Shown here: one piece after another, positions 511-19,672 of the stretch
Layout: every line of letters begins with the position of its first letter
Numbering within the stretch: position 1 is the first letter of the stretch
Origin: Candidatus Saccharimonadota bacterium
Lineage (GTDB): Bacteria > Patescibacteriota > Saccharimonadia > Saccharimonadales > UBA4665
NCBI GenBank assembly: GCA_016699935.1
Contig: CP064992.1
Span: forward strand, 630,001-662,000
DNA: 32,000 nucleotides
Reading direction: 5' to 3'
Program-made: the position numbers and the translations under genes
The notes under the pieces: model-generated
The model's input: the letters and a program-made list of their open reading frames with translations, nothing else
What the model was told of the DNA's origin: nothing
Databases searched by the model: none

Positions 511-1089
511 ATGGCAGATAGCCGATTGTTCGAAGCAGAAGGCGGGATTATCAATCCTGATATAACAGAGCTAATTATGCGATTTGTCCGCCCAGAATTG
601 TTTGAAGAAAGTGTTTCGGTGTATCGTCATGCGCAGGGAGCTAGTAAAGCGAACACGGGGATTTTATCATACGGTGTGCCTGTGCCACAGCTGACTAAAA
701 TTTTCGCGCGACTTATAGCTGAACAAGAAATGTACGGAAAAGATGGCTGGTTACCAGGAGTTATCATGCTCACGACTGTCATGAAAGGAGATTTCCTGCA
801 GGCTCTAGCAGACCATACGCAGGCAGATACGCCTTTGGGCGAACTTTCACGAATGATTTTTGATTGCCCAAGAATCAGTTTGCTTGATGATGACCCGAAT
901 CATCTTAACTTAATACCGGCAGATGACGCTCGTGCGGTGCTACCTATACGTTCGATTCGCGGTGGTACAAAAACAACTTCAACCTGCCCAGGGTGGTGCG
1001 CCGGTGATGTAGTTGATTTTCGCACTGCATCTCCAGGCAGACTAGCAGAGATACTGGGAATTCATTTAGTAGAGCAAGAAGATATTTAG
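511..1089 (+). CDS. hypothetical protein
   Basis: An uninterrupted 192-aa ORF that starts 1 nt after the upstream stop. I recognise no family motif. A Cys pair (CPGWC) lies near the C-terminus. Confidence 0.45.
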   Translation: MADSRLFEAEGGIINPDITELIMRFVRPELFEESVSVYRHAQGASKANTGILSYGVPVPQLTKIFARLIAEQEMYGKDGWLPGVIMLTTVMKGDFLQALADHTQADTPLGELSRMIFDCPRISLLDDDPNHLNLIPADDARAVLPIRSIRGGTKTTSTCPGWCAGDVVDFRTASPGRLAEILGIHLVEQEDI

Positions 1090-3281: not shown

Positions 3282-3890
3282 TTAATAGACACCGAGCTGC
3301 CATGGGTTACTCTGAGCGCTGCCGGAAACGGACGTTGCGGAGCTTATGAGCGAAATAATTCTTTGCTGTGCTAGTTGTATGCTGTGGCGCGGTATCACTG
3401 GATGCGGGGCGCTCGAAAAATGCGGTAGGTTCGGAGAGATGCGGGGATTGGCTTTTGCGTCGGCACGGGTGAAGCCGTTTTTAGGTGATACGCTTTCAGT
3501 TTTCATTATCGGCTGGGGCGGTAAGGCGCAGGAACTGTCGACCATTTTTGCAACCTCTAGGCAAATAAGGTCTATGATTTGGCTGCCCACATGCTGGCCG
3601 CGTAGACCGGGAGCGACGACGAGGCGGTGCAGGTAACCAGCGATGGGTGGTTGCTGGCCCCAGCGGCTAGGGTCGTCCCAAAAGAGCATAAAGATGGCAA
3701 CAATTTCTTCTTCGGTATAGGCTACGTACATATTCCCGCCGTTAATAATAGCTTTCAGCTGGCTTTCATCTGTCACGCTCTCGCCCCAAGCAAGATCGCC
3801 ACGGTACATCTTGCTGCGAATGCCATGCTCCAGAATAGCTCTAATGTCTTCTAAGTCTTCCTCTATAGCCTGAGCAATCCCAATATTCAT
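3282..3890 (-). pseudogene. GNAT-family N-acetyltransferase with a disturbed reading frame in the C-terminal third (possible sequencing artefact)
   Basis: The N-terminal 118 aa carry GNAT motif A (YLHRLVVAPGLRGQHVGSQII). The expected continuation NGRQFLRLTAPADNEN and KAYHLK(N)GFTR appears only by switching frames at homopolymer runs, for example T5 at 3546-3550 and 3478-3482. The true 3' end is uncertain. Confidence 0.7.
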
Positions 3891-3922
3891 ACTTGGATTA
3901 TACCAGGCATTGCTAGGGTAAA

Positions 3923-4978
3923 CGTAGAGAACTCAAGACCTTTGCAACATTTCAGCAGGAGTCTTGCACTGTAAACTCAAGTGTACTCGCTTGAAGTTGT
4001 AATATTCAAAGGTAATCGTCTAGTTTTGTTTGTATGTGCTTGGTGGTTATCTTGTAGGATATTGAGCTTCCAAGACATTCTTCCTGGACGGTGCGGTTAA
4101 AGCGTTCTATGTGTGCATTGTCATTAGGTCTCCCAGTCTGGTATGTCGGGTAGACATAACATTTCTTCTGAGCACTTGCTCAAAGTAATGGCTAAACTCC
4201 GGACCATTGTCAGCCTGCACCATATGGAAGTCAAAGCCAAACTCATTCCTGGCATGTAGCACCACACGTGCAGCCAAGCCAGGCAGAATGCGAGGATGGA
4301 TCTCGACGTAGGCCATACGGGTATACAAATCTATGACGGTATAGACATACCTTCTGCTCTTGGTTAATGGGCAAATATAGTGAATGGTGTCCGTTTCAAC
4401 CAGCTCACCAGGCCTAGTCACGTGGGGACGCCTTGGATTATCTGGACGCACCCGTTTCTTCCGAGCACCGTCAAAGCAGTGGTAACGCCGCAATATGCGG
4501 CGCACACTACTCAGGCTTACGTGTAAGCCATCCGTGCGGGCGATGTGGTACCAAACAACCTCAGCACAGCGTTTAAGTTGAGCCCGAAGCTCTAGTACTC
4601 GGGCAACAATATAAGGAGCAACAGCACGAGGACTGGTACATGGCCTGAGCTAATGGTGGAACCAGCCACTTGAGGGCTGCTTGCCTAAATACATTGCCGG
4701 CACTCCTGGTTGGTCGGTTATCGTTGGTAAGCTGAACGTTCTCATTGAGCGCCTCCCATTTCTGTTTCCAGCGCCAGACTGTACTGCGGTGTACACTGCA
4801 ACGGTTCGCTACCACCTGTAGTGGTAGCTTTTCACGGATGAGCAACTGCATGGCAATTGCTCTCGCTTTTGGTAAGTTAGGTTGGTAGAATAAGTATGGT
4901 AGGCTCCTTTCATTGTTATGTGGTAATAACAGTTTAGGACGCCTACCTTTTAGGTTGCAAAGGTGGTGAGTTACTACG
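3923..4978 (-). mobile_element. IS481-like insertion sequence (about 1.06 kb) with imperfect terminal inverted repeats
   Basis: IR-L at 3923-3948 (CGTAGAGAACTCAAGACCTTTGCAAC) matches the reverse complement of IR-R at 4954-4978 (CGTAGTAACTCACCACCTTTGCAAC), with an 11-bp perfect core. It encloses a single HTH + DDE transposase gene whose stop codon lies inside IR-L. Confidence 0.75.
3933..4913 (-). pseudogene. DDE transposase (N-terminal HTH plus rve integrase core), read through about 4 frameshifts
   Basis: The pieces are MKGAYHTYSTNLTYQK / ARAIAMQLLIREKLPLQVVANRCSVHRSTVWRW (HTH) and RPCTSPRAV...VSLSSVRRILRR. Catalytic residues sit in ETDTIHY (D), VQADNGPEF (D) and RPNDNAHIERFNRTVQEE (E). The tail is YYNFKRVHLSLQCKTPAEMLQRS*. 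The pieces lie in different frames. Two of the frame switches coincide with short homopolymers, near 4127-4136 and at 4008-4010. Confidence 0.8.
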
Positions 4979-5200: not shown

Positions 5201-5277
5201 GGGGTGATAGCTCAGTTGGTTAGAGCACCTGCTTTGCAAGCAGGGGGTCCGGGGTTCGAGTCCCCGTCACTCCACCA
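5201..5277 (+). tRNA. tRNA-Ala(UGC)
   Basis: Manual cloverleaf: GGGGTGA/TCACTCC acceptor with the G3:U70 Ala identity pair. D-arm GCTC-AGTTGGTTA-GAGC, anticodon arm CCTGC-TTTGCAA-GCAGG, T-arm CGGGG-TTCGAGT-CCCCG. CCA is encoded. Confidence 0.95.
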
Positions 5278-5284
5278 AGGTTCT

Positions 5285-5353
5285 AATGAGACAAAACTAT
5301 CAGTTTTTCTCATCGCGCCGAGAAACGGAATGAATCCGTTTCGCGGGCTGCTC
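5285..5353 (-). repeat. two-hairpin module, copy A (inverted orientation relative to copies B and C)
   Basis: The reverse complement reads GAGCAGCC-[hairpin GAAACGGA/TCCGTTTC]-CGCGATGAGA-[hairpin AAAACT/AGTTTT]-TCTCATT. It lies 8 nt downstream of the tRNA-Ala CCA end. Confidence 0.65.
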
Positions 5354-5519
5354 TTTCGAAGCGCAGGACAGTGGTATTCATGGGGCGCAGTGCCTCAAAG
5401 CACAGCGTCTCCACCATTCGATTCACTTGTTCGCTTATGGTAAACCATTGACGTTCGGAGTTGAATGCTCCCAAGTAAGGACAATAAGCAAATTAATAAT
5501 TCAATTAGATCTGACTGAT

Positions 5520-5595
5520 GGGCGATTAGCTCAGCTGGTTAGAGCGCGTCACTGATAATGACGAGGTCGGAGGTTCGAGTCCTCATCGCCCACCA
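5520..5595 (+). tRNA. tRNA-Ile(GAU)
   Basis: GGGCGAT/ATCGCCC acceptor, D-arm GCTC-AGCTGGTTA-GAGC, anticodon arm CGTCA-CTGATAA-TGACG, T-arm GGAGG-TTCGAGT-CCTC, with CCA encoded. The 3' strand of the T-stem is one C short (CCTC instead of CCTCC), which is consistent with a homopolymer undercount. Confidence 0.85.
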
Positions 5596-5804: not shown

Positions 5805-6645
5805 TGTACGGATGCTTGAGTTTAGACAGTGAGGCTTCGGTAATACCGGCCAAACGGAAATAAACCGCCAAGCTTTAAGCTTAAACTCAAGCTAAAAACG
5901 CATCGTCGTCTTTTCTTTTTCGAAAGATATGGACACGGTGAAGTGTCTTGAGTCGCATTTTAACAAGTCAAATATGTTAGAGAAGAGAATTTGTTCGCTC
6001 GACATCGCTCGGGGTACCCCCTCGAGAGTTACAGCGAACAAGAAAGCAAGATTATCTGTTTTTCGAACAGATAATCACAGAAGACAAACGGCTATTGATA
6101 TTGATCACGGTGGTTTTCAAATTGCCATACGTGGTACATACCAATAACCAGTCAACCCGGCCCCTATTTTTACGAGTAGGAGTCCGGGATTGAACTCGAC
6201 CGCCGCAAGGCAGCTGAGTTCAATTGCACAAATGCGGAACAAACGAAGTTTGTTCTCGTTAAATCAAGCTCTGACTTTTGACGGATTTATTCCGGCAATA
6301 GTCTGTCCGCTAGAGGAAAAAGAGCAGCGAATCGACGAGGAAAATGTAGTTTTGTTTCGTTTTCGTAAAAAGTTACTCAAGCGCACACAAAGGATGCCTT
6401 GACATGTAATACCGAAGAAGGACGTGATGAGCTGCGAAAAGCTCCGGGGAACAGCCAAATATGTTTTGATCCGGAGATGTCCGAATGGGGAAACCCGGCT
6501 GGAGTAATGTCCAGTCACCGCTATCTGAATATATAGGATAGTGAGTAGGTAACCGCCTGAACTGAAACATCTTAGTAGGGCGAGGAAGAGAAAGTAAACA
6601 ACGATTCCGGTAGTAGTGGCGAGCGAATCCGGAACAGCCCAAACC

Positions 6646-6828
6646 TATTTTGCTTTTGCCTGGTAATTTATTACTGGCAAATAAGTTGGTAGACGAATGT
6701 AAATTACGGGGTTGTGACATTGCAAACATCCTTGTGTGGGAGTCCGCTTCGGCGGGAGTCCACACGAGGCAGCTAGATCTACCAGTGTCTAGCATAAGGT
6801 CAGAAATTGATGAGGCGAGCAGAAGCAA
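6646..6828 (+). other. 23S domain I expansion (about 180 nt where E. coli has about 30 nt, roughly E. coli nt 271-305)
   Basis: It lies between CAGCCCAAACC and CTGGAAAGTTGCGCC. It contains a UUCG-capped hairpin, GTGTGGGAGTCCGC-TTCG-GCGGGAGTCCACAC. Confidence 0.6.
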
Positions 6829-6896
6829 CTGGAAAGTTGCGCCATAGACGGTGATAGCCCGGTACGCCAAGTTTCATCAACCTTATATTTGCAAAC

Positions 6897-7049
6897 TTGC
6901 GTGGGACGCAAGATTTAGCAGACAAACAAATAGCATTTAGCAGAAATTGAGCAGCTATCAGGTTGCAGACGAAAACATCTGAAACCTGAAAAATGTTAAA
7001 TTCTGTCATCCGCGATTTGGTGCCTGATAAATCTCGCGTTTTACGCGAG
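6897..7049 (+). repeat. 153-nt TIR-bearing insertion element in 23S, copy 1 (domain I)
   Basis: It interrupts conserved 23S sequence between GGTGATAGCCCGGTACGCC... and ...GTCGAGTAGGTCGGGGCACGTG. It has the same length as the element at 7856-8008 and aligns with it over the full length. Its ends are inverted repeats. Confidence 0.8.
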
Positions 7050-7855
7050 TCTTAGTGTCGAGTAGGTCGGGGCACGTGAAATCCTGACTGAATCTGGGGG
7101 GTCCACCCTCCAAGGCTAAATATATTACATGATCGATAGAGAACAAGTACCGCGAGGGAAAGGTTAAAAGAACCCCGGGAGGGGAGTGAAATAGAACCTG
7201 AAATTGTGTGCGTACAAGGAGTCGGAGTCCCGCCTTTGGCGGGATGACGGCGTGCTTTTTGTAGAACGATCCAACGAGTTATTTGCTACGGCAAGCTTAA
7301 GTCATATGACGTAAGCTAAGCGAAAGCGAGTCTGAATAGGGCATTCAGTCGTAGTAAATAGACCCGAAACCAGGTGACCTAACCATGGGCAGGTTGAAGC
7401 GTCGGTAAAACGACGTGGAGGACCGAACCGTAGCGAGTTGCAACACGCCCGGATGACCTGTGGTTAGCGGTGAAATGCCAATCGAACCTGGAGATAGCTG
7501 GTTCTCCTCGAAATAGCTTTAGGGCTAGCGTTGTACGGTAGCTGATAGGGGTAGAGCTCTGTTTCGGACTGGGGGTCGTAAGATTACCCACCCTTGACAA
7601 ACTACGAATACTATCAGTGGAACTACAGCAGTCAGAACGGCGGGGCTAAGCTCGTCGCTCGAAAGGGAAACAGCCCAGATCACCATCTAAGGTCCCCAAG
7701 TCTATGCTAAGTGGGAAACGAGGTGGGGTTTCTTAAACAACTAGGATGTTGGCTTAGAAGCAGCCATTCATTTAAAGAGTGCGTAACAGCTCACTAGTCA
7801 AGAGGCCCTGCGCGGAAAATGTAACGGGGCTAAGCATAGCACCGAAGATGTGAAC

Positions 7856-8008
7856 TTGTGCATAGCACAAGATTTAGCAGAAAAACAGGTAGCATGTTTC
7901 AGAAATTTTTCAGGTATCAGGTTACAGACGAGCCGTCTGCCACCTGCCAAATGCAAAATTTCTGTTATCTGCGACTTGTGACCTGATAAATCATGCGCTA
8001 TGCATGAG
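7856..8008 (+). repeat. 153-nt TIR-bearing insertion element in 23S, copy 2 (helix 45 loop, the classical IVS site)
   Basis: It is inserted between GCACCGAAGATGTGAAC and TGGTAGAGGAGCGTTC. It shares the blocks GATTTAGCAGA, CAGAAATT, TATCAGGTTRCAGACGA and CCTGATAAATC with copy 1. Confidence 0.8.
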
Positions 8009-8505
8009 TGGTAGAGGAGCGTTCCTCTCAGCGTTGAAGTTGAACCGTGAGGTTTGGTGGAGCGTGAGGAAGTGAGAATGTTGGAATGAGTAACCATAAG
8101 GCAGGTGAGAATCCTGCCCACCGAAAGAGCAAGGTTTCCTGGGCCACGGTAATCGTCCCAGGGTTAGTCGGTCCTAAGCCGAGGCGCGTAGCGTAGGCGA
8201 TGGACAACGGGTTAATATTCCCGTACTGGCATGTATTTGTTATATGTGCGCGGCATAGTAGTAGGAGCGGATTCATGGTTATATCCGTCTAAGTGCGAGA
8301 AAAGCGTACGAATGAAACGACCATCAGGTTGAATTTCGATGAAAGTGCTGACTAGAAAAGCAATATAACGCGTGGTACATGCCACCCGTACCGCAAACCG
8401 ACACAGGTGCTCAGGTCGAGAAGACCAAGGTGTACGAGTGATTCTTCGTTAAGGAACTCGGCAAACAAGCGACCGTAACTTCGGGATAAGGTCTGCCCCC
8501 TCACT

Positions 8506-8756
8506 CTGTCTATGACAGGTGAGTATGCCAGTTTTCTTTTTGAAAACCTGGCGTGAATGTAAGTTTATAACTTCTTATGTTCACGACAAATCGAACAATT
8601 TTTGAGACATATCAGAAAGAAAGCTGTCCCAAACACACTAGATGCGTTATTGCTGCAAACTGTTCCCGAAAGGGAAATGAGCAGCCGGAGCAACGAATTT
8701 ATTTCGGTGCACCGCGCGATGAGAAAAACCGTAGGTTTTATCTCATTCACAGCTAG
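8506..8756 (+). other. 23S expansion of about 250 nt in the helix 63 region
   Basis: It is closed by GCCCCCTCACT (8495-8505) pairing with AGTGAGGGGGC (8757-8767). E. coli has about 45-60 nt here. It contains two-hairpin module copy B. Confidence 0.7.
8679..8747 (+). repeat. two-hairpin module, copy B (inside the 23S expansion)
   Basis: GAGCAGCC-GGA-[GCAACGAA/TTCGGTGC]-ACCG-CGCGATGAGA-[AAAACC/GGTTTT]-A-TCTCATT. Confidence 0.65.
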
Positions 8757-9207
8757 AGTGAGGGGGCCGCAGCTAAAGAACCCATGCAACTGTTTACCAA
8801 AAACACAGGTCTGTGCTAACACGAAAGTGGATGTATACGGGTTGACGCCTGCCCGGTGCTGGAAGGTTAAGGGGAGTTGTGTATGCAGCGAACTGAAGCC
8901 CCAGTGAACGGCGGCGGTAACTATAACCGTCCTAAGGTAGCGAAATTCCTTGTCAGGTAAGTTCTGACCCGCACGAATGGCGTAATGATATGGGTACTGT
9001 CTCAACGAAGAGCTCGGTGAAAGTGCATTGACGGTAAAGATGCCGTCTGTCCGCAGCAGGACGAAAAGACCCCGTGCAGCTTTACTATAGCTTGACATTG
9101 AGCCGGGTTATAACATGTGTAGTATAGGTGAGAGACTTTGAAGCCCAGACGCTAGTCTAGGTGGAGTCACCAGTGAAATATCACCCTTGTTATGATCTTG
9201 TTCTTTA

Positions 9208-9405
9208 CGGGGCCCTCAATTTGCGGAGCAAATGGAGGGCATTGATCATTTTTCATTGATAATTTACCATTAATTCTTCATTGTACATGTTTCAATTATG
9301 CATTTTAGAGTGCCAAATGAGACATGCTACCTGATCAATTAATGCAAAATGTCCAATGGTAATGGTAATGACCTCTGAATTTGATCCTCAAATTCAGGGT
9401 CCCGG
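9208..9405 (+). other. AT-rich 23S expansion (about 175 nt extra, helix 79 region near E. coli nt 2200-2225)
   Basis: It lies between CCCTTGTTATGATCTTGTTCTTTACGG and GGACCGTGTCTGGTGGGTAGTTT. It is flanked by hairpins GCCCTCAATTTGC/GCAAATGGAGGGC and CTGAATTTGA/TCAAATTCAG. The centre is strongly AT-rich and contains no ORF. Confidence 0.7.
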
Positions 9406-9710
9406 ACCGTGTCTGGTGGGTAGTTTAACTGGGGCGGTTGCCTCCTAAAGAGTATCGGAGGCGTTCAAAGGTTAGCTAACTACGGATGGAAATCGTAGTG
9501 ATAGTGTATACGCATAAGCTAGCTTGACTGTGAGGCCTACAAGCCGAGCAGGGACGAAAGTCGGAGTAAGTTTTCCGCTGTCAGTACATTTGTACAAGAG
9601 TGTGGTATCGGCAGCGCTTTCGGATAAAAGTTACGCCGGGGATAACAGGCTTATAGCATCCAATAGTTCACATAGACGATGCTGTTTGGCACCTCGATGT
9701 CGGCTCATCT

Positions 9711-9741
<31 letters not shown>

Positions 9742-9769
9742 CGGCTGTTCGCCGGTTAAAGAGGTACGT

Positions 9770-9803
<34 letters not shown>

Positions 9804-10266
9804 TTATATCCGCTGTGGACGCAAGGAAATTTGAGAGGATCTACCCCTAGTACGAGAGGACCGGGGCGGACGCACCGCTGGTGTATCAGTTGTTCTACCA
9901 AGGGCATTGCTGAGTAGCTATCGTGCGGAATAGATAAGCGCTGAAAGCATATTAAGCGCGAAACTAGCCTCAAGATTAGATTTCCCTATGATCCCCCAGA
10001 AAGACTATCTGGTTGATAGGCGCAAGGTGTACGCACAGCAATGTGTTTAGCCGAAGCGTACTAATAGGGACATTGACTTTTTACGACCTATGAAACGTGC
10101 ATTTTACGTGCATGTTTCATAGGCAAAAAGTGCATTGACTGGTTATTGGTGTGGTTTTACCATACTGGTAGCAACGTTTGTTTACATTGCTAGCTCTTTT
10201 CTAACATCCGTCTACTTTTGTAATGGACATCGACTGGCTCCGTCTCAATCTACCACTGATTGGGAA

Positions 10267-10349: not shown

Positions 10350-10463
10350 CTCGGTGCCCATAGCGAGAGGGAAATACCTGTTCCCATACCGAACACAGCA
10401 GTCAAGCCTCTCAGCGGTTACAATACTTGGGTCTTCTAGCCCTGGGAAAATAGCACGGTGCCG
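10350..10463 (+). rRNA. rrf: 5S ribosomal RNA
   Basis: CCCATAGCGAGAGGGAAATACCTGTTCCCATACCGAACACAGCAGTCAAGCCTCTCAGCG matches the loop A / helix II-III consensus. Helix I is formed by CGGTGCC (5') pairing with GGTGCCG (3'), including two G.U pairs. Confidence 0.88.
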
Positions 10464-10475
10464 TTTTTACGATAA

Positions 10476-17198: not shown

Positions 17199-19672
17199 AT
17201 GTATAAAAACACACAAGCGGAATTCCAATTTGTCTAGACTGTTAGAAAAAGTCCAGGTATTTGGTGCCGTGCTACTTTTTAGGCCTATCATTCATTGCGC
17301 CCATAGTTGTATCGCCGAAAGCCCATGCGGCTAACTTCACAATGCGTACTGGTTACTATCTGGGCACGGGAACTACGAAGACAATAAGCGGGCTCGGTTT
17401 TCAGCCCAGTTTTGTTATGATCAAGGCTTCGACGACGGCTGGCGTCGCTGTCTTTAAAACAAGCTCCATGGCGGCCAGTACAACGGCGTTCTTCAGTGCA
17501 ACTGCTGATAATGCGGTAACGAACATATCTTTTAGCGCCGATGGCTTTACAGTGGGCACACTTGCCAATGTGAATGCAGTGAATGTGTTGTACCGCTGGA
17601 CGGCGTTTAATGGTTCAGACTGTACCGCAACGGGATACTTCTGCGAGGGAACGTATACTGGAACCGGAGTTGCCGGTAGGGCCATCACGACGGGATTTCA
17701 ACCGAATATGGTAATGGTCAAGCGATCGACGGCAGTCGCAGCGCATTTTCGCACAACTTCCATGGCGGCAAACAGGACAGAATTCTTCACTTCTACTGCT
17801 GCAGATACGGCCGGGAATTATATAGCCTCATTGTCGGCAACCGGATTCACAGTTGGCAATACAGATAATACAAACACAGCAACGTACTATTATGTTGCTT
17901 TTCGCTCAGGTGCGGGTAGTTTTGCACAAGGGACGTATACGGGTAATGCGACGTCTCGAAGCATCACTGGTCTTGGCTTCCAACCGGACTTGGTATTCGT
18001 TAAAAATAGCACAAGTGCGACAGCCAAAATCGCCGTTCCATTATGTCAGGTGATAGGCACTTCGGAGACTTAGCTAGTTACGCTAGTGATCTTGTGGCAG
18101 ATGCCACTGGTATGATTCAGGGTATGCTCTCAGATGGGTTTCGGGTTGGCACAGGAGTAAACACGAATCAGACAGGCACTACGGAGTATTGGTTCGCGTT
18201 TGAGGCGCCCCTTCCTTCGGAAGCTCGAGCGGCTCGTTTTCAATGGCTCAGGGCACGTACACTGGTAACGGGGCAGTTCGTTCCATTACTGGTATTGGTT
18301 TTGCGCCAGACCTGGTGATGATAAAAGATAACGCGGCGAACTTTGCCGTGTTTCGTATTCGGCAAATGGTAGGTAATGCCACAGCCTACTTTGCATCTGC
18401 CACTGCAGATTTTACTGGAGGGATTACCTCACTGGATGCTGGCGGGTTTAGTTTGGGGACGAGTACTATTGTGAATACAAATGGCAACAGTTATCATTGG
18501 CAGGCGTTTGGAAACGCCTATACATCGGATACAAACAGTGGGTCGGCTGATTTTGCGACAGGGGTGTATTATGGAAACGGCCTGACAGCGCGACCTATAA
18601 CTGATACCCCATTCCAGCCCGATCTCGTTGCGGTCAAGCGGAACAACACAACTGCCGGTGCTTTCCGTACTAGTGCCTACGCAGGCGATCTCAGCAGCTT
18701 TTTTGGCGCTACAGCCGAAACTGCTGGGGTTGTACAGTCACTGAACGTGAACGGTTTTACGGTGGGTACAAATGCTGCATCGAACACGGGCGCATCGCTC
18801 TACCGCTGGTTTGCGTTCAAAACGGGCACGAATTTTAGCGTGGGCACATACACGGGAACCGGTGTTGCGGGACGACAGGTGAGTGCACCGTTCTGGTCTG
18901 ATCTTATTTGGGTAAAGCGGTCGACCACAGTTGTCGGAGCCCAATTACCGTCAACTCTGACCGGAGGAAACGCGCAGTACCTGACAAATACTGCCAATGC
19001 TGCAAATATGATAACGGAATCAATGCCAGTGGCTTTGTGGTAGGGACGAGTACTTCCACAAATACGAACGGCGGCGTCTATCGCCATGCGGCGTGGCGGG
19101 TACCTCCTAACGGGGCTCTTACGGTTGATATCGTCAATGCTGGCGGCACGAGCGTTGTGTCGCCATCGGTGAGCTTTGCAAGTCTGGGGCTTGTTTTCAG
19201 CTGTACGGAGAGCACCGCGAACCTGGGAATTGCAGCGCAAAAAATACGGGTAAGCAATATGACAGCAAATGCGAGCTGGGTGCTTTCAGTTGCGCCTACG
19301 GCAGGACCGACTGGTCTTTGGGATAACACCGGCGCTACGGCACACTACGACTTCAATGATACGACAGGTACACAGCCGGGTTGTGCTGATGGAATCGATG
19401 CAGATGCGTTTGCTGGAAAACTACGTGTTGAACCATCCGCAAGCAGCCTTGCGCCACAGACTGGATGTTCATCGTCAAACCTCAGCCTAGGATCAAATCA
19501 GGATTATACCCAAGGGGTAGTAGATTCAATCAGTCTCCTTACGGCTGCGGTCGGGTCGAATACTGAGTGCTATTGGGACGTGACGGGCATTCCTTTGCGT
19601 CAAACCATCCCTGCCGAGCAGATGCCATCATCGTATAGTCTTGGTCTAACCATAACTCTTATGGCACAATGA
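17199..19672 (+). pseudogene. large secreted surface protein with six ~100-aa tandem modules plus a C-terminal WxL-like domain (CscC-like); at least 4 frameshifts
   Basis: The likely start is MYKNTQAEFQFV (ATG 17199). A signal-like segment ...FGAVLLF/LGLSFIAPIVVSPKAHA follows across a frame switch. The modules are read from ORFs 17261-18073, 18043-18318, 18243-19043 and 18908-19672. The C-terminus (LTVDIVNAGGTSVVSPSVSF...ASWVLSVAP...IPAEQMPSSYSLGLTITLMAQ*) is paralogous to the 14874-15483 protein. Confidence 0.6.

What the first reader, a model, noticed from the sequence alone, without database searches (positions are those of the whole stretch)
6897..8008. Two paralogous 153-nt elements with terminal inverted repeats are inserted in two different helices of the 23S rRNA
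Both inserts (6897-7049 and 7856-8008) are exactly 153 nt and interrupt otherwise conserved 23S sequence. The second lies in the helix-45 loop, the classical intervening-sequence site of Salmonella, Yersinia, Campylobacter and Leptospira. The first lies in domain I, at roughly E. coli nt 345-365. The two align end to end at roughly three-quarters identity. Shared blocks are GATTTAGCAGA, TAGCAT, CAGAAATT, TATCAGGTT[G/A]CAGACGA, TTCTGT[C/T]ATC[C/T]GCGA and CCTGATAAATC. Each has terminal inverted repeats of about 23-25 nt. In copy 1 the 5' end GCGTGGGACGCAAGATTTAGCAG matches the reverse complement of the 3' end, GCGTAAAACGCGAGATTTATCAG. In copy 2 the pair is TGCATAGCACAAGATTTAGCAG and TGCATAGCGCATGATTTATCAG. 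The RNA ends would therefore close into a long stem. The terminal hairpin also shows a compensatory change between copies (TTGCG..CGCAA versus TTGTG..CACAA). A homologous TIR-bearing element at two unrelated rRNA positions points to a small mobile IVS/MITE-like element that targets rRNA hairpin loops, not to ordinary lineage-specific expansion segments. I cannot tell whether it is excised, which would fragment the 23S, or retained.
Basis: partly seen in the sequence, partly recalled or inferred. Interest (0 to 1): 0.75.

Follow-up and report, generated by a model that had tools for sequence, protein, structure and literature searches.

The report
Mobile hairpin inserts in Saccharibacteria 23S
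The two inserts are real copies of a roughly 154-nt non-coding hairpin family that sits at four different places in the 23S rRNA genes of Saccharibacteria and is missing from very close relatives, so these intervening-sequence-like inserts have moved between rRNA helices and between lineages.

Summary
Window 6896-7049 and 7855-8008 are two 154-nt units inside the 23S gene (6366-10085) of a complete Candidatus Saccharibacteria genome. They are 73-77% identical (z about 16 against shuffles). Each folds into one long hairpin, and all 49 shared pairs are kept, six through double changes.

Copy 2 replaces the tip of helix 45. Copy 1 branches from the 3' strand of the H16-H18 arm, near E. coli nt 363.

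Three relatives have empty sites at both positions. Two of them share 96-97% 23S identity with the window and one shares 93%. The family recurs elsewhere: one of the closest relatives (CP064993.1) carries a member in helix 25, and a distant Saccharibacteria-like 23S fragment (L024) carries one in the hairpin after CCCAAAC (E. coli about 272). Element similarity does not follow host similarity.

I found no target-site duplication, no ORF, no Rfam match, and no copy outside 23S in the sequence I could search. The MITE label is therefore not supported.

The best reading is an IVS-type hairpin family that spreads by copy-and-paste among surface helices. It is probably an RNase III substrate, but excision versus retention is untested. 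This is a new variant of a known kind, of moderate to high interest.

The parts
6366..10085 (+). 23S rRNA gene that hosts the elements. It is about 800 nt longer than the bacterial consensus.
   Evidence: Rfam LSU_rRNA_bacteria, 2471 bits, model positions 1-2925. Inserts relative to E. coli are listed.
6896..7049 (+). Copy 1, a 154-nt hairpin unit branching from the 3' strand of the H16-H18 arm of domain I (after E. coli ~363).
   Evidence: Window-only relative to L013, L040, L041 and L024. Folds at -62.9 kcal/mol, z -7. CM R1 scores 138 bits.
6896..6912 (+). Copy 1 5' arm, CTTGCGTGGGACGCAAG. It is a 17-nt self-complementary mini-hairpin that also pairs with the 3' arm.
   Evidence: Read from the sequence. 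Pairing shown.
6912..7033 (+). Copy 1 conserved core, from GATTTAGCAG to CCTGATAAATC.
   Evidence: Four-member alignment and consensus fold.
7033..7049 (+). Copy 1 3' arm, CTCGCGTTTTACGCGAG (17-nt palindrome).
7855..8008 (+). Copy 2, a 154-nt hairpin unit that replaces the distal hairpin of helix 45 (E. coli ~1164-1185).
   Evidence: Relatives have 17-20 nt here: L040/L041 TTTCTAGATTTATCTAGGAG and L013 CTCGTGCTTTGCACGAG. Folds at -68.5 kcal/mol, z -8.3. CM R1 scores 143 bits.
7855..7871 (+). Copy 2 5' arm, CTTGTGCATAGCACAAG. It is a 17-nt mini-hairpin, 13/17 identical to the whole native H45 hairpin of relative L013.
   Evidence: the 13/17 count is by direct reading of the two sequences.
7871..7992 (+). 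Copy 2 conserved core.
7992..8008 (+). Copy 2 3' arm, CATGCGCTATGCATGAG.
9236..9374 (+). Long AT-rich hairpin at the helix-79 site (after E. coli ~2212). Possible but unproven distant relative of the family.
   Evidence: CM R1 scores 33 bits on the minus strand and 29 on the plus strand. Sequence z is only 1.3-5.1. An unrelated AT-rich palindrome scores 35 bits, so this score range is unreliable.

Best explanation
These are two members of a non-coding, IVS-type hairpin family specific to Saccharibacteria 23S rRNA genes.

Shown:
- The unit is about 154 nt. It consists of two 17-nt palindromic arms flanking a 122-nt core with conserved motifs.
- It is transcribed as part of the pre-23S, because it lies inside the gene.
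- It is predicted to fold into one long stem that extends or branches from a helix at sites known to tolerate inserts (the classical IVS sites helices 25 and 45, from the literature).
- Pairing has been preserved through compensatory changes.
- Members occupy four different 23S sites in three genomes.
- Very close relatives have empty sites.

Inferred:
- The unit spreads by copy-and-paste of the whole hairpin into tolerant helices, and between lineages by horizontal transfer or recombination. It does not use classical transposition.
- The arms resemble a native helix-45 hairpin, which suggests the family began as a helix-45 extension.
- In the cell, the quasi-continuous basal duplex of at least 22 bp is most likely cut by RNase III, as for classical IVSs. 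That would release the hairpin and leave 23S in pieces of about 530, 805 and 2077 nt.
- Retention as a surface expansion segment is the main alternative for this last step.
For: - Paralogy: 112/153 identical, z about 16.
- Hairpin folds: z -7 and -8.3. L024 and L040 members fold the same way, at -72 kcal/mol each, z -7.5 and -6.7.
- Pairing: 49/49 pairs kept in both copies, six double changes, and slid controls only 27-40% paired. In the four-member core, 36 pairs with five double changes.
- Empty sites: L013, L040 and L041 at both positions.
- Host 23S identity: 0.964-0.970 for L040/L041 and 0.93 for L013, on 2820 shared columns.
- Extra members: L024 at Ec~272, nhmmer E 7e-34. L040 at helix 25, E 4e-11 with the two-copy profile and 2e-16 with a three-member profile that excludes it.
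- Pairwise scores among members: z 8-17.
- Incongruence: the L024 host is only about 0.78 identical in shared 23S columns, and its other variable segments are 32-51% identical to the window's. Its element is nevertheless 71-77% identical to c1 and c2, about as close as they are to each other.
- Absence elsewhere: no Rfam family. No hits in phages, plasmids or viral contigs.
- Literature: short non-intron inserts are universal in Saccharibacteria 23S genes and are presumed to be IVSs (PMC11270868). Classical IVSs sit in helices 9, 25 and 45, form terminal stems cut by RNase III, and are sporadic (PMC4990558).
Against: - No RNA data, so excision is untested. Eukaryotic ribosomes retain expansion segments at the same helices (my own knowledge), so retention is structurally plausible.
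- Only five Saccharibacteria 23S genes could be compared, and only four family members are known.
- The collection-wide scans needed exact end motifs and would miss diverged members. The rest of the 1.23-Mb genome could not be read.
- Presence in one genome of a clade can also be produced by repeated loss.
- Sense and antisense strands fold about equally well, so the data do not separate RNA-level from DNA-level constraint.
- No insertion mechanism is identified.
Confidence: 0.6

Rival explanations
1. Retained bacterial expansion segments. The hairpins stay in the mature 23S on the ribosome surface and have multiplied by duplication of an existing helix into other helices, with no RNase III excision. 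The genetics match the best explanation, but the RNA fate differs.
For: - Two of the four sites (Ec~272 and Ec~363) are variable in length among these genomes; helix 25 and helix 45 differ from the short native form only where a family member is present.
- The same 23S carries other large inserts that are not family members.
- Paired positions are conserved after duplication, which fits a structural role as well as a processing role.
- From my own knowledge, eukaryotic expansion segments occupy the H25 and H45 regions.
Against: - Helices 25 and 45 are the classical sites of excised IVSs (PMC4990558).
- The long near-perfect basal duplex is the typical RNase III substrate.
- The patchy presence among genomes with 96-97% identical 23S argues against any needed structural role.
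Confidence: 0.3
2. A conventional MITE: a non-autonomous DNA transposon with terminal inverted repeats, moved in trans by a transposase. It is seen in rRNA only because insertions elsewhere were not sampled.
For: - The ends are inverted repeats.
- The L040 member aligns about equally well in both orientations, 48.8 versus 45.3 bits. If it is truly inverted, that would favour insertion as DNA.
- Transposase remnants lie in the rRNA spacer (rve and HTH).
- Y1_Tnp genes occur in the relative's genome (L039).
Against: - No target-site duplication at any of the four sites (direct reading of filled versus empty sites).
- No copy outside 23S in the window, in about 190 kb of related Saccharibacteria loci, or in about 270 kb of mixed loci — pattern-scan hits from other organisms plus further Saccharibacteria loci.
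- Exact-motif scans of 185,579 species genomes and 241 million metagenome records gave one true hit, which lies inside a 23S.
- The element has no similarity to the spacer IS remnants.
- The arm motifs do not occur near the Y1_Tnp genes.
Confidence: 0.07
3. Old, vertically inherited paralogous segments present in the common ancestor at several sites and lost repeatedly. No recent mobility and no horizontal transfer.
For: - Copies are 23-37% diverged, so none is a fresh duplicate.
- L013's short helix 45 (CTCGTGCTTTGCACGAG) looks like the element's arm and could be a deletion footprint.
Against: - It needs at least two or three independent precise losses for each of four sites.
- Each member is unique to one genome, even within a clade of 96-97% 23S identity.
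- The L024 element is far better conserved relative to the window than any other variable segment of that host pair, 71-77% against 32-51%.
- c2 shares more sites with L024's copy than with c1 (22 versus 16).
Confidence: 0.1

Closest known systems
Bacterial 23S rRNA intervening sequences (IVSs) of helices 9, 25 and 45 in Salmonella, Yersinia, Campylobacter, Leptospira and Coxiella, excised by RNase III
   Same: - Non-intron extra sequence inside the 23S gene.
- Replaces the tip of helix 45 (c2) or helix 25 (L040 member).
- The ends pair into a long stem.
- Sporadic among close relatives.
- Horizontal transfer is suspected (PMC4990558; PMC2801512).
   Different: - One homologous sequence family occupies four different sites, two of them non-classical (Ec~272 and Ec~363). 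In the papers I could search, I found no report of homology between IVSs at different helices.
- No ORF, unlike the Leptospira and Coxiella IVSs.
- Excision and 23S fragmentation have not been shown here.
Short non-intron insertion sequences catalogued in CPR rRNA genes (Tsurumaki et al. 2024, PMC11270868)
   Same: Same phylum and same kind of object. All 35 Saccharibacteria 23S genes examined had inserts of at least 100 bp. Of the 66 Saccharibacteria rRNA inserts, 64 were no longer than 250 bp and had no intron or homing endonuclease. Those at sites 23IS2 and 23IS4 were judged probable IVSs.
   Different: In the text I read, that survey classifies inserts by position, intron model and ORF. 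It does not report sequence families shared between sites, empty sites in close relatives, or host-element incongruence.
Rickettsia palindromic elements (RPEs) and other hairpin-forming bacterial repeats such as Correia and ERIC (from my own knowledge)
   Same: These are palindromic elements of about 100-150 nt that can sit inside functional genes at positions where the product tolerates them, and they fold as hairpins in RNA.
   Different: Those families have many copies dispersed through the genome, mostly outside rRNA. This family has been found only inside 23S genes, with one or two copies per genome.
Eukaryotic and archaeal rRNA expansion segments grown by helix insertion (accretion model; from my own knowledge)
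   Same: A new helix branches from or extends an existing surface helix without disturbing the core. Copy 1 is a branch on the H16-H18 arm.
   Different: Expansion segments are usually treated as growing in place. Here the inserted helix is a recognisable copy of a helix found elsewhere in the same rRNA and in other genomes.

Membership tests
RNase III-processed 23S IVS | Extra sequence inside the 23S gene at the tip of a helix where relatives have a short loop | tested here: met
   c2 replaces 17-20 nt of helix 45. The L040 member extends helix 25. Three relatives have empty sites. c1 and the L024 member are at non-classical sites.
RNase III-processed 23S IVS | Termini pair into a long stem suited to RNase III | tested here: met
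   The predicted basal stems have 13-15 contiguous pairs within a quasi-continuous duplex of at least 22 bp. Fold z scores are -6.7 to -8.3. This is a prediction only.
RNase III-processed 23S IVS | Sporadic distribution among close relatives | tested here: met
   Each member is present in only one of five compared 23S genes, including genomes with 96-97% identical 23S.
RNase III-processed 23S IVS | Removed from mature rRNA without religation, so that 23S is fragmented | not testable with these tools
   No RNA data are available. Fragments of 530, 805 and 2077 nt are predicted if both copies are excised.
MITE / non-autonomous DNA transposon | Terminal inverted repeats | tested here: met
   The arms are inverted repeats. 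However, the whole unit is a hairpin, and each arm is itself palindromic.
MITE / non-autonomous DNA transposon | Target-site duplication flanking each copy | tested here: not met
   Filled sites compared with empty sites show no flanking direct repeat at any of the four sites.
MITE / non-autonomous DNA transposon | Multiple dispersed genomic copies, and a related autonomous element sharing the ends | tested here: not met
   No copies outside 23S in the loci searched with the covariance model or in the pattern scans. No similarity to the spacer IS remnants. The full genome was not available.
Group I / group II rRNA introns | Match to intron covariance models, or a homing-endonuclease ORF | tested here: not met
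   Rfam searches at gathering and at E<=10 gave no intron hit. The copies differ by 1-nt indels, so no shared reading frame is kept.
REP/RAYT or IS200/IS605-derived palindromic elements | Hairpin ends associated with a Y1 (HUH) transposase gene, and dispersed copies | tested here: inconclusive
   Y1_Tnp genes exist in the relative CP064993.1 (L039). The arm motifs are absent from L039 and occur in L040 and the window only within the elements themselves. Only about 40 kb of that genome was seen.
Retained rRNA expansion segment | Present in the mature rRNA of the assembled ribosome | not testable with these tools
   This needs RNA-seq, a gel, or a ribosome structure.

The most novel reading that the evidence does not exclude
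This is an rRNA-specific mobile hairpin. It would be a non-coding, non-intron element whose transposing unit is the entire excisable stem-loop, possibly starting from the native helix-45 hairpin. It copies itself into other surface helices of 23S and crosses between Saccharibacteria lineages by a mechanism not yet described. Candidate mechanisms are re-insertion of the RNase III-released hairpin at the RNA level followed by reverse transcription or recombination, or palindrome-driven template switching at the DNA level. If true, it would be direct evidence for how IVSs and expansion segments arise and spread.
Probability: 0.3. Interest if true: 0.8.

Novelty: new variant of a known kind. Interest (0 to 1): 0.6.

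Why it matters
The origin of 23S intervening sequences and of rRNA expansion segments is an old open question. IVSs have long been suspected of being mobile because they are sporadic, but IVSs at different helices have been treated as unrelated. This case offers one recognisable sequence family at four helices in three genomes, with empty sites in near-identical relatives.

That makes the question testable in three ways:
- The family can be traced with a covariance model across Patescibacteria.
- Its movements can be dated against host trees.
- Its fate in RNA can be checked in cultured Saccharibacteria or in metatranscriptomes.

There is also a practical point. Such inserts lengthen 23S genes and may fragment the 23S rRNA, which affects rRNA-based quality checks and phylogenies for these organisms.

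Tried and rejected
- **nhmmer** silently failed because of an ambiguous query format. I repeated it correctly, which found no third strong copy in the window.
- **Genome-contig scan** with GATTTAGCAG..CCTGATAAATC gave 11 hits, about the chance expectation. The one Saccharibacteria hit (L006) is not in an rRNA gene and lacks the family's internal blocks.
- **Metagenome scan** gave 14 hits, of which only L024 is real. L023 reads as an ordinary non-hairpin stretch (it looks like the end of a gene) and L026 is unrelated.
- **Collecting more 23S genes through synteny** with the downstream pilin-like gene worked only for L013. The loci of P0011, P0022, P0051, P0016 and P0018 are not next to rRNA. 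Closer relatives (P0002, P0007) sit on contigs that break in the 23S 3' end.
- **The ORF upstream of 16S** (511-1089) has no homologue other than itself.
- **Other collections:** viral contigs with a looser pattern gave 82 hits but zero covariance-model matches. Phage and plasmid blastn found nothing. Rfam at E<=10 gave only chance hairpin matches.
- **Sense versus antisense fold energies** show no consistent asymmetry, so they cannot tell RNA-level from DNA-level selection.
- **A link to Y1 transposases** in the relative's genome was not supported.
- **Helix-79 hairpin as a fifth member:** it scores 33 bits, but an unrelated AT-rich palindrome in a Terrisporobacter contig scores 35 bits. I left this open.
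- **** used a scoring scheme with free end gaps that gave no information. I redid it.
- **Orientation of the L040 member** relative to the others could not be settled, at 48.8 versus 45.3 bits.

Full report
**What is in the window.** Rfam places a complete rRNA operon in the window: 16S at 1363-2927, tRNA-Ala and tRNA-Ile at 5201-5594, 23S at 6366-10085 and 5S at 10350-10466. The 23S is 3720 nt against a 2925-position model. An exact protein match identifies the source as a complete 1,226,308-bp Candidatus Saccharibacteria genome in NCBI. Aligned to E. coli rrlH, the extra sequence falls after E. coli positions ~272, 283, 363, 1173 (helix 45), 1730, 1751 and 2212.

**Checking the observation.**
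Their global alignment score is 66, against -33 +/- 6 for 1000 shuffles.
- The repeat finder recovers the same pair at a constant offset of 959 nt.
- Each segment folds into a single long imperfect hairpin: -62.9 and -68.5 kcal/mol, z -7.0 and -8.3.
- On the two-copy alignment, all 49 consensus pairs form in both copies. Six pairs changed on both sides, four of them in the basal stem. Sliding the 3' partners by one to three columns drops pairing to 27-40%.
- Substitutions concentrate in unpaired columns. The hairpin has therefore been kept by selection since the copies diverged.
- There is no third strong copy in the window.

**Where exactly the copies sit.** Comparison with relatives sets the unit boundaries at 6896-7049 and 7855-8008, 154 nt each.
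- Copy 2 replaces the distal hairpin of helix 45. Its flanks GATGTGAA and TGGTAGAGG are shared with relatives, which carry 17-20 nt between them.
- Copy 1 lies between TTTGCAAA and TCTTAGTGTCGAGTAGG, on the 3' strand of the H16-H18 arm at about E. coli 363. Two relatives have an unrelated hairpin of about 50 nt at that site, and two have nothing.
- Copy 1 is therefore a branch helix rather than an insertion in a pre-existing loop.

**Relatives with empty sites.** Two syntenic genes gave three full 23S genes from related Saccharibacteria. The genes were a pilin-like gene downstream of 5S and a GNAT gene inside the 16S-23S spacer. The three loci are L013 (GCA_002746885.1), L040 (CP064993.1, a complete genome) and L041 (a JGI contig).
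- On 2820 columns shared with E. coli, the window is 96.4% identical to L040, 97.0% to L041 and 93.2% to L013.
- All three lack both copies.

**More members, at other sites.**
- A motif scan of JGI metagenomes returned one true homologue, L024, a 1046-nt fragment of a more distant Saccharibacteria-like 23S (about 78% identity in 757 shared columns). Its element (nhmmer E 7e-34) sits in the hairpin that follows CAGCCCAAACC, at about E. coli 272. The Ec~363 site in L024 is empty.
- L040 lacks both window copies but carries a homologous hairpin of about 165 nt in helix 25. The nhmmer E-value is 4e-11 with the two-copy profile and 2e-16 with a three-member profile that excludes it.
- The four members align with many invariant columns and share a consensus fold of 36 pairs, five of them with double changes.
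- Pairwise scores among members lie 8-17 standard deviations above shuffles.
- All four fold as one long hairpin continuing the host helix.
- A covariance model built from them finds only these four at high score (109-147 bits) in about 220 kb (the 32-kb window plus ~190 kb of related Saccharibacteria loci) and about 270 kb of other loci.

**Element history does not follow host history.**
- Over the full unit, c1-c2 are 73.9% identical, c2-L024 77.1% and c1-L024 71.2%. c2 shares more sites with L024's copy (22) than with c1 (16).
- The member in the closest host, L040, is the most divergent, at 63-69%.
- Between the window and L024, the other variable 23S segments are only 32-51% identical.
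- Each member is unique to one of five genomes.
- This pattern fits gain by copy-and-paste plus transfer between lineages, drawing on a larger unsampled pool. It fits poorly with vertical inheritance and loss.

**Anatomy worth noting.**
- Each terminal arm is a 17-nt palindrome: c2 CTTGTGCATAGCACAAG, L024 CTTGTGCGTTGCACAAG, c1 CTTGCGTGGGACGCAAG. The arms are therefore direct and inverted repeats at once.
- The base can form either one long stem or two mini-hairpins. The L040 member also has palindromic arms, but of a different sequence.
- The c2 5' arm is 13/17 identical to the entire native helix-45 hairpin of L013 (CTCGTGCTTTGCACGAG), and this arm travels with the unit to the other sites.
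- I infer that this subfamily began as an extension of helix 45 and that the moving unit is the whole stem-loop. The alternative is that L013's short helix 45 is a deletion footprint. This step is inference.

**What it is not.**
- No target-site duplication is visible at any of the four filled sites when they are compared with empty ones.
- The copies differ by 1-nt indels, so no reading frame is shared.
- Rfam gives no intron or other family match.
- The element shows no similarity to the IS remnants in the spacer.
- The arm motifs do not occur elsewhere in the window or near the Y1 transposase genes of CP064993.1.
- Scans of 185,579 species genomes, 241 million metagenome records, IMG/VR, phage records and plasmid records found no copy outside a 23S gene. 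Those collection scans required exact end motifs, so diverged members would be missed.
- The MITE label is therefore not supported on present evidence.

**How it most likely works.** Two of the four sites are the classical IVS sites, helices 25 and 45. IVSs are defined by a terminal stem cut by RNase III, sporadic occurrence and suspected horizontal transfer (PMC4990558; PMC2801512). A survey of CPR rRNA genes found that all 35 Saccharibacteria 23S genes carry inserts of at least 100 bp. Almost all of these inserts are short, without introns or endonucleases, and were judged probable IVSs (PMC11270868).

The units here have quasi-continuous basal duplexes of at least 22 bp. I therefore take RNase III excision, leaving 23S pieces of about 530, 805 and 2077 nt, as the most likely fate. 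Retention as surface expansion segments is the main alternative, because I have no RNA data. Sense and antisense strands fold about equally well, and the L040 member aligns nearly as well in either orientation. The data therefore do not say whether copying happens through DNA or RNA.

**Novelty.** Short inserts in Saccharibacteria 23S genes and IVSs in general are known. I did not find, in the papers I could search, any report of one homologous IVS-like family occupying several different helices, with empty sites in near-identical relatives and host-element incongruence. I rate it a new variant of a known kind. The literature search covers only open-access papers, so an earlier report cannot be excluded.

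**Limits.**
- Only five 23S genes and four family members were compared.
- The rest of the source genome could not be read.
- The collection scans depended on exact motifs.
- Helix numbers for the two non-classical sites rest on my reading of the Rfam consensus and the E. coli alignment.

Noticed in passing
window 3282-4851 (minus strand); L013:3293-3874; L040:10001-10576; L041:10001-10528: The 16S-23S spacer is 2.3 kb long and holds a GNAT acetyltransferase gene. That gene is conserved in the same spacer in three relatives. Next to it are remnants of an IS: an rve integrase core at 4107-4505 and an HTH at 4573-4851. The spacers of relatives carry other cargo, namely a 390-aa HTH_38 protein in L040 and a 1202-aa RCC1/WD40-like protein in L041.
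   Followed up: partly
window 9188-9386 (hairpin 9236-9374); L041:2149-2274; L013:8520-8661: A long AT-rich hairpin sits at the helix-79 site, with a CAUU/AAUG motif repeating about every 10 nt. It is present in the window, L041 and L013 but replaced by about 50 nt in L040. The window's copy is closer to L013's (69%) than to L041's (60%), against host relatedness. It contains ACCTGAT(C/A)AAT, which resembles the family's 3' motif, but covariance-model scores of about 33 bits are in the range of unrelated palindromes.
   Followed up: partly
window ~1441-1538: There is an insert of about 98 nt in the 16S gene near helix 6. The 16S of relative L013 is 93 nt shorter overall (1472 nt, against 1565 nt in the window). 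The insert is not a member of the hairpin family.
   Followed up: no
L013:6219-6333 (within the Ec~272 site): L013 has its own extension of about 200 nt at the same hairpin where L024 carries the family member. The sequence is unrelated (z about 0), so this site is repeatedly re-filled with different sequences.
   Followed up: partly
window 5201-5594; L013:4975-5270: The spacer tRNAs are ordered Ala then Ile on the rRNA strand in the window. In L013 the two spacer tRNAs lie on the opposite strand to the rRNAs, which implies an inversion within the operon.
   Followed up: no
window 8498-8640 and 8703-8784: Two further large inserts lie after E. coli ~1730 and ~1751 (helix 63 region). They are 75-79% identical to those of L040 and L041 where both are present, but the second is about half the length in L040 and L013.
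   Followed up: no
window 511-1089: This 192-aa ORF directly upstream of 16S has no homologue other than itself among 5.8 billion proteins and no Pfam domain.
   Followed up: yes
L039:1361-2026 and 17966-18583: The relative CP064993.1 has two Y1_Tnp (IS200/IS605-type or RAYT-like) genes within 17 kb. No link to the hairpin family was found.
   Followed up: partly
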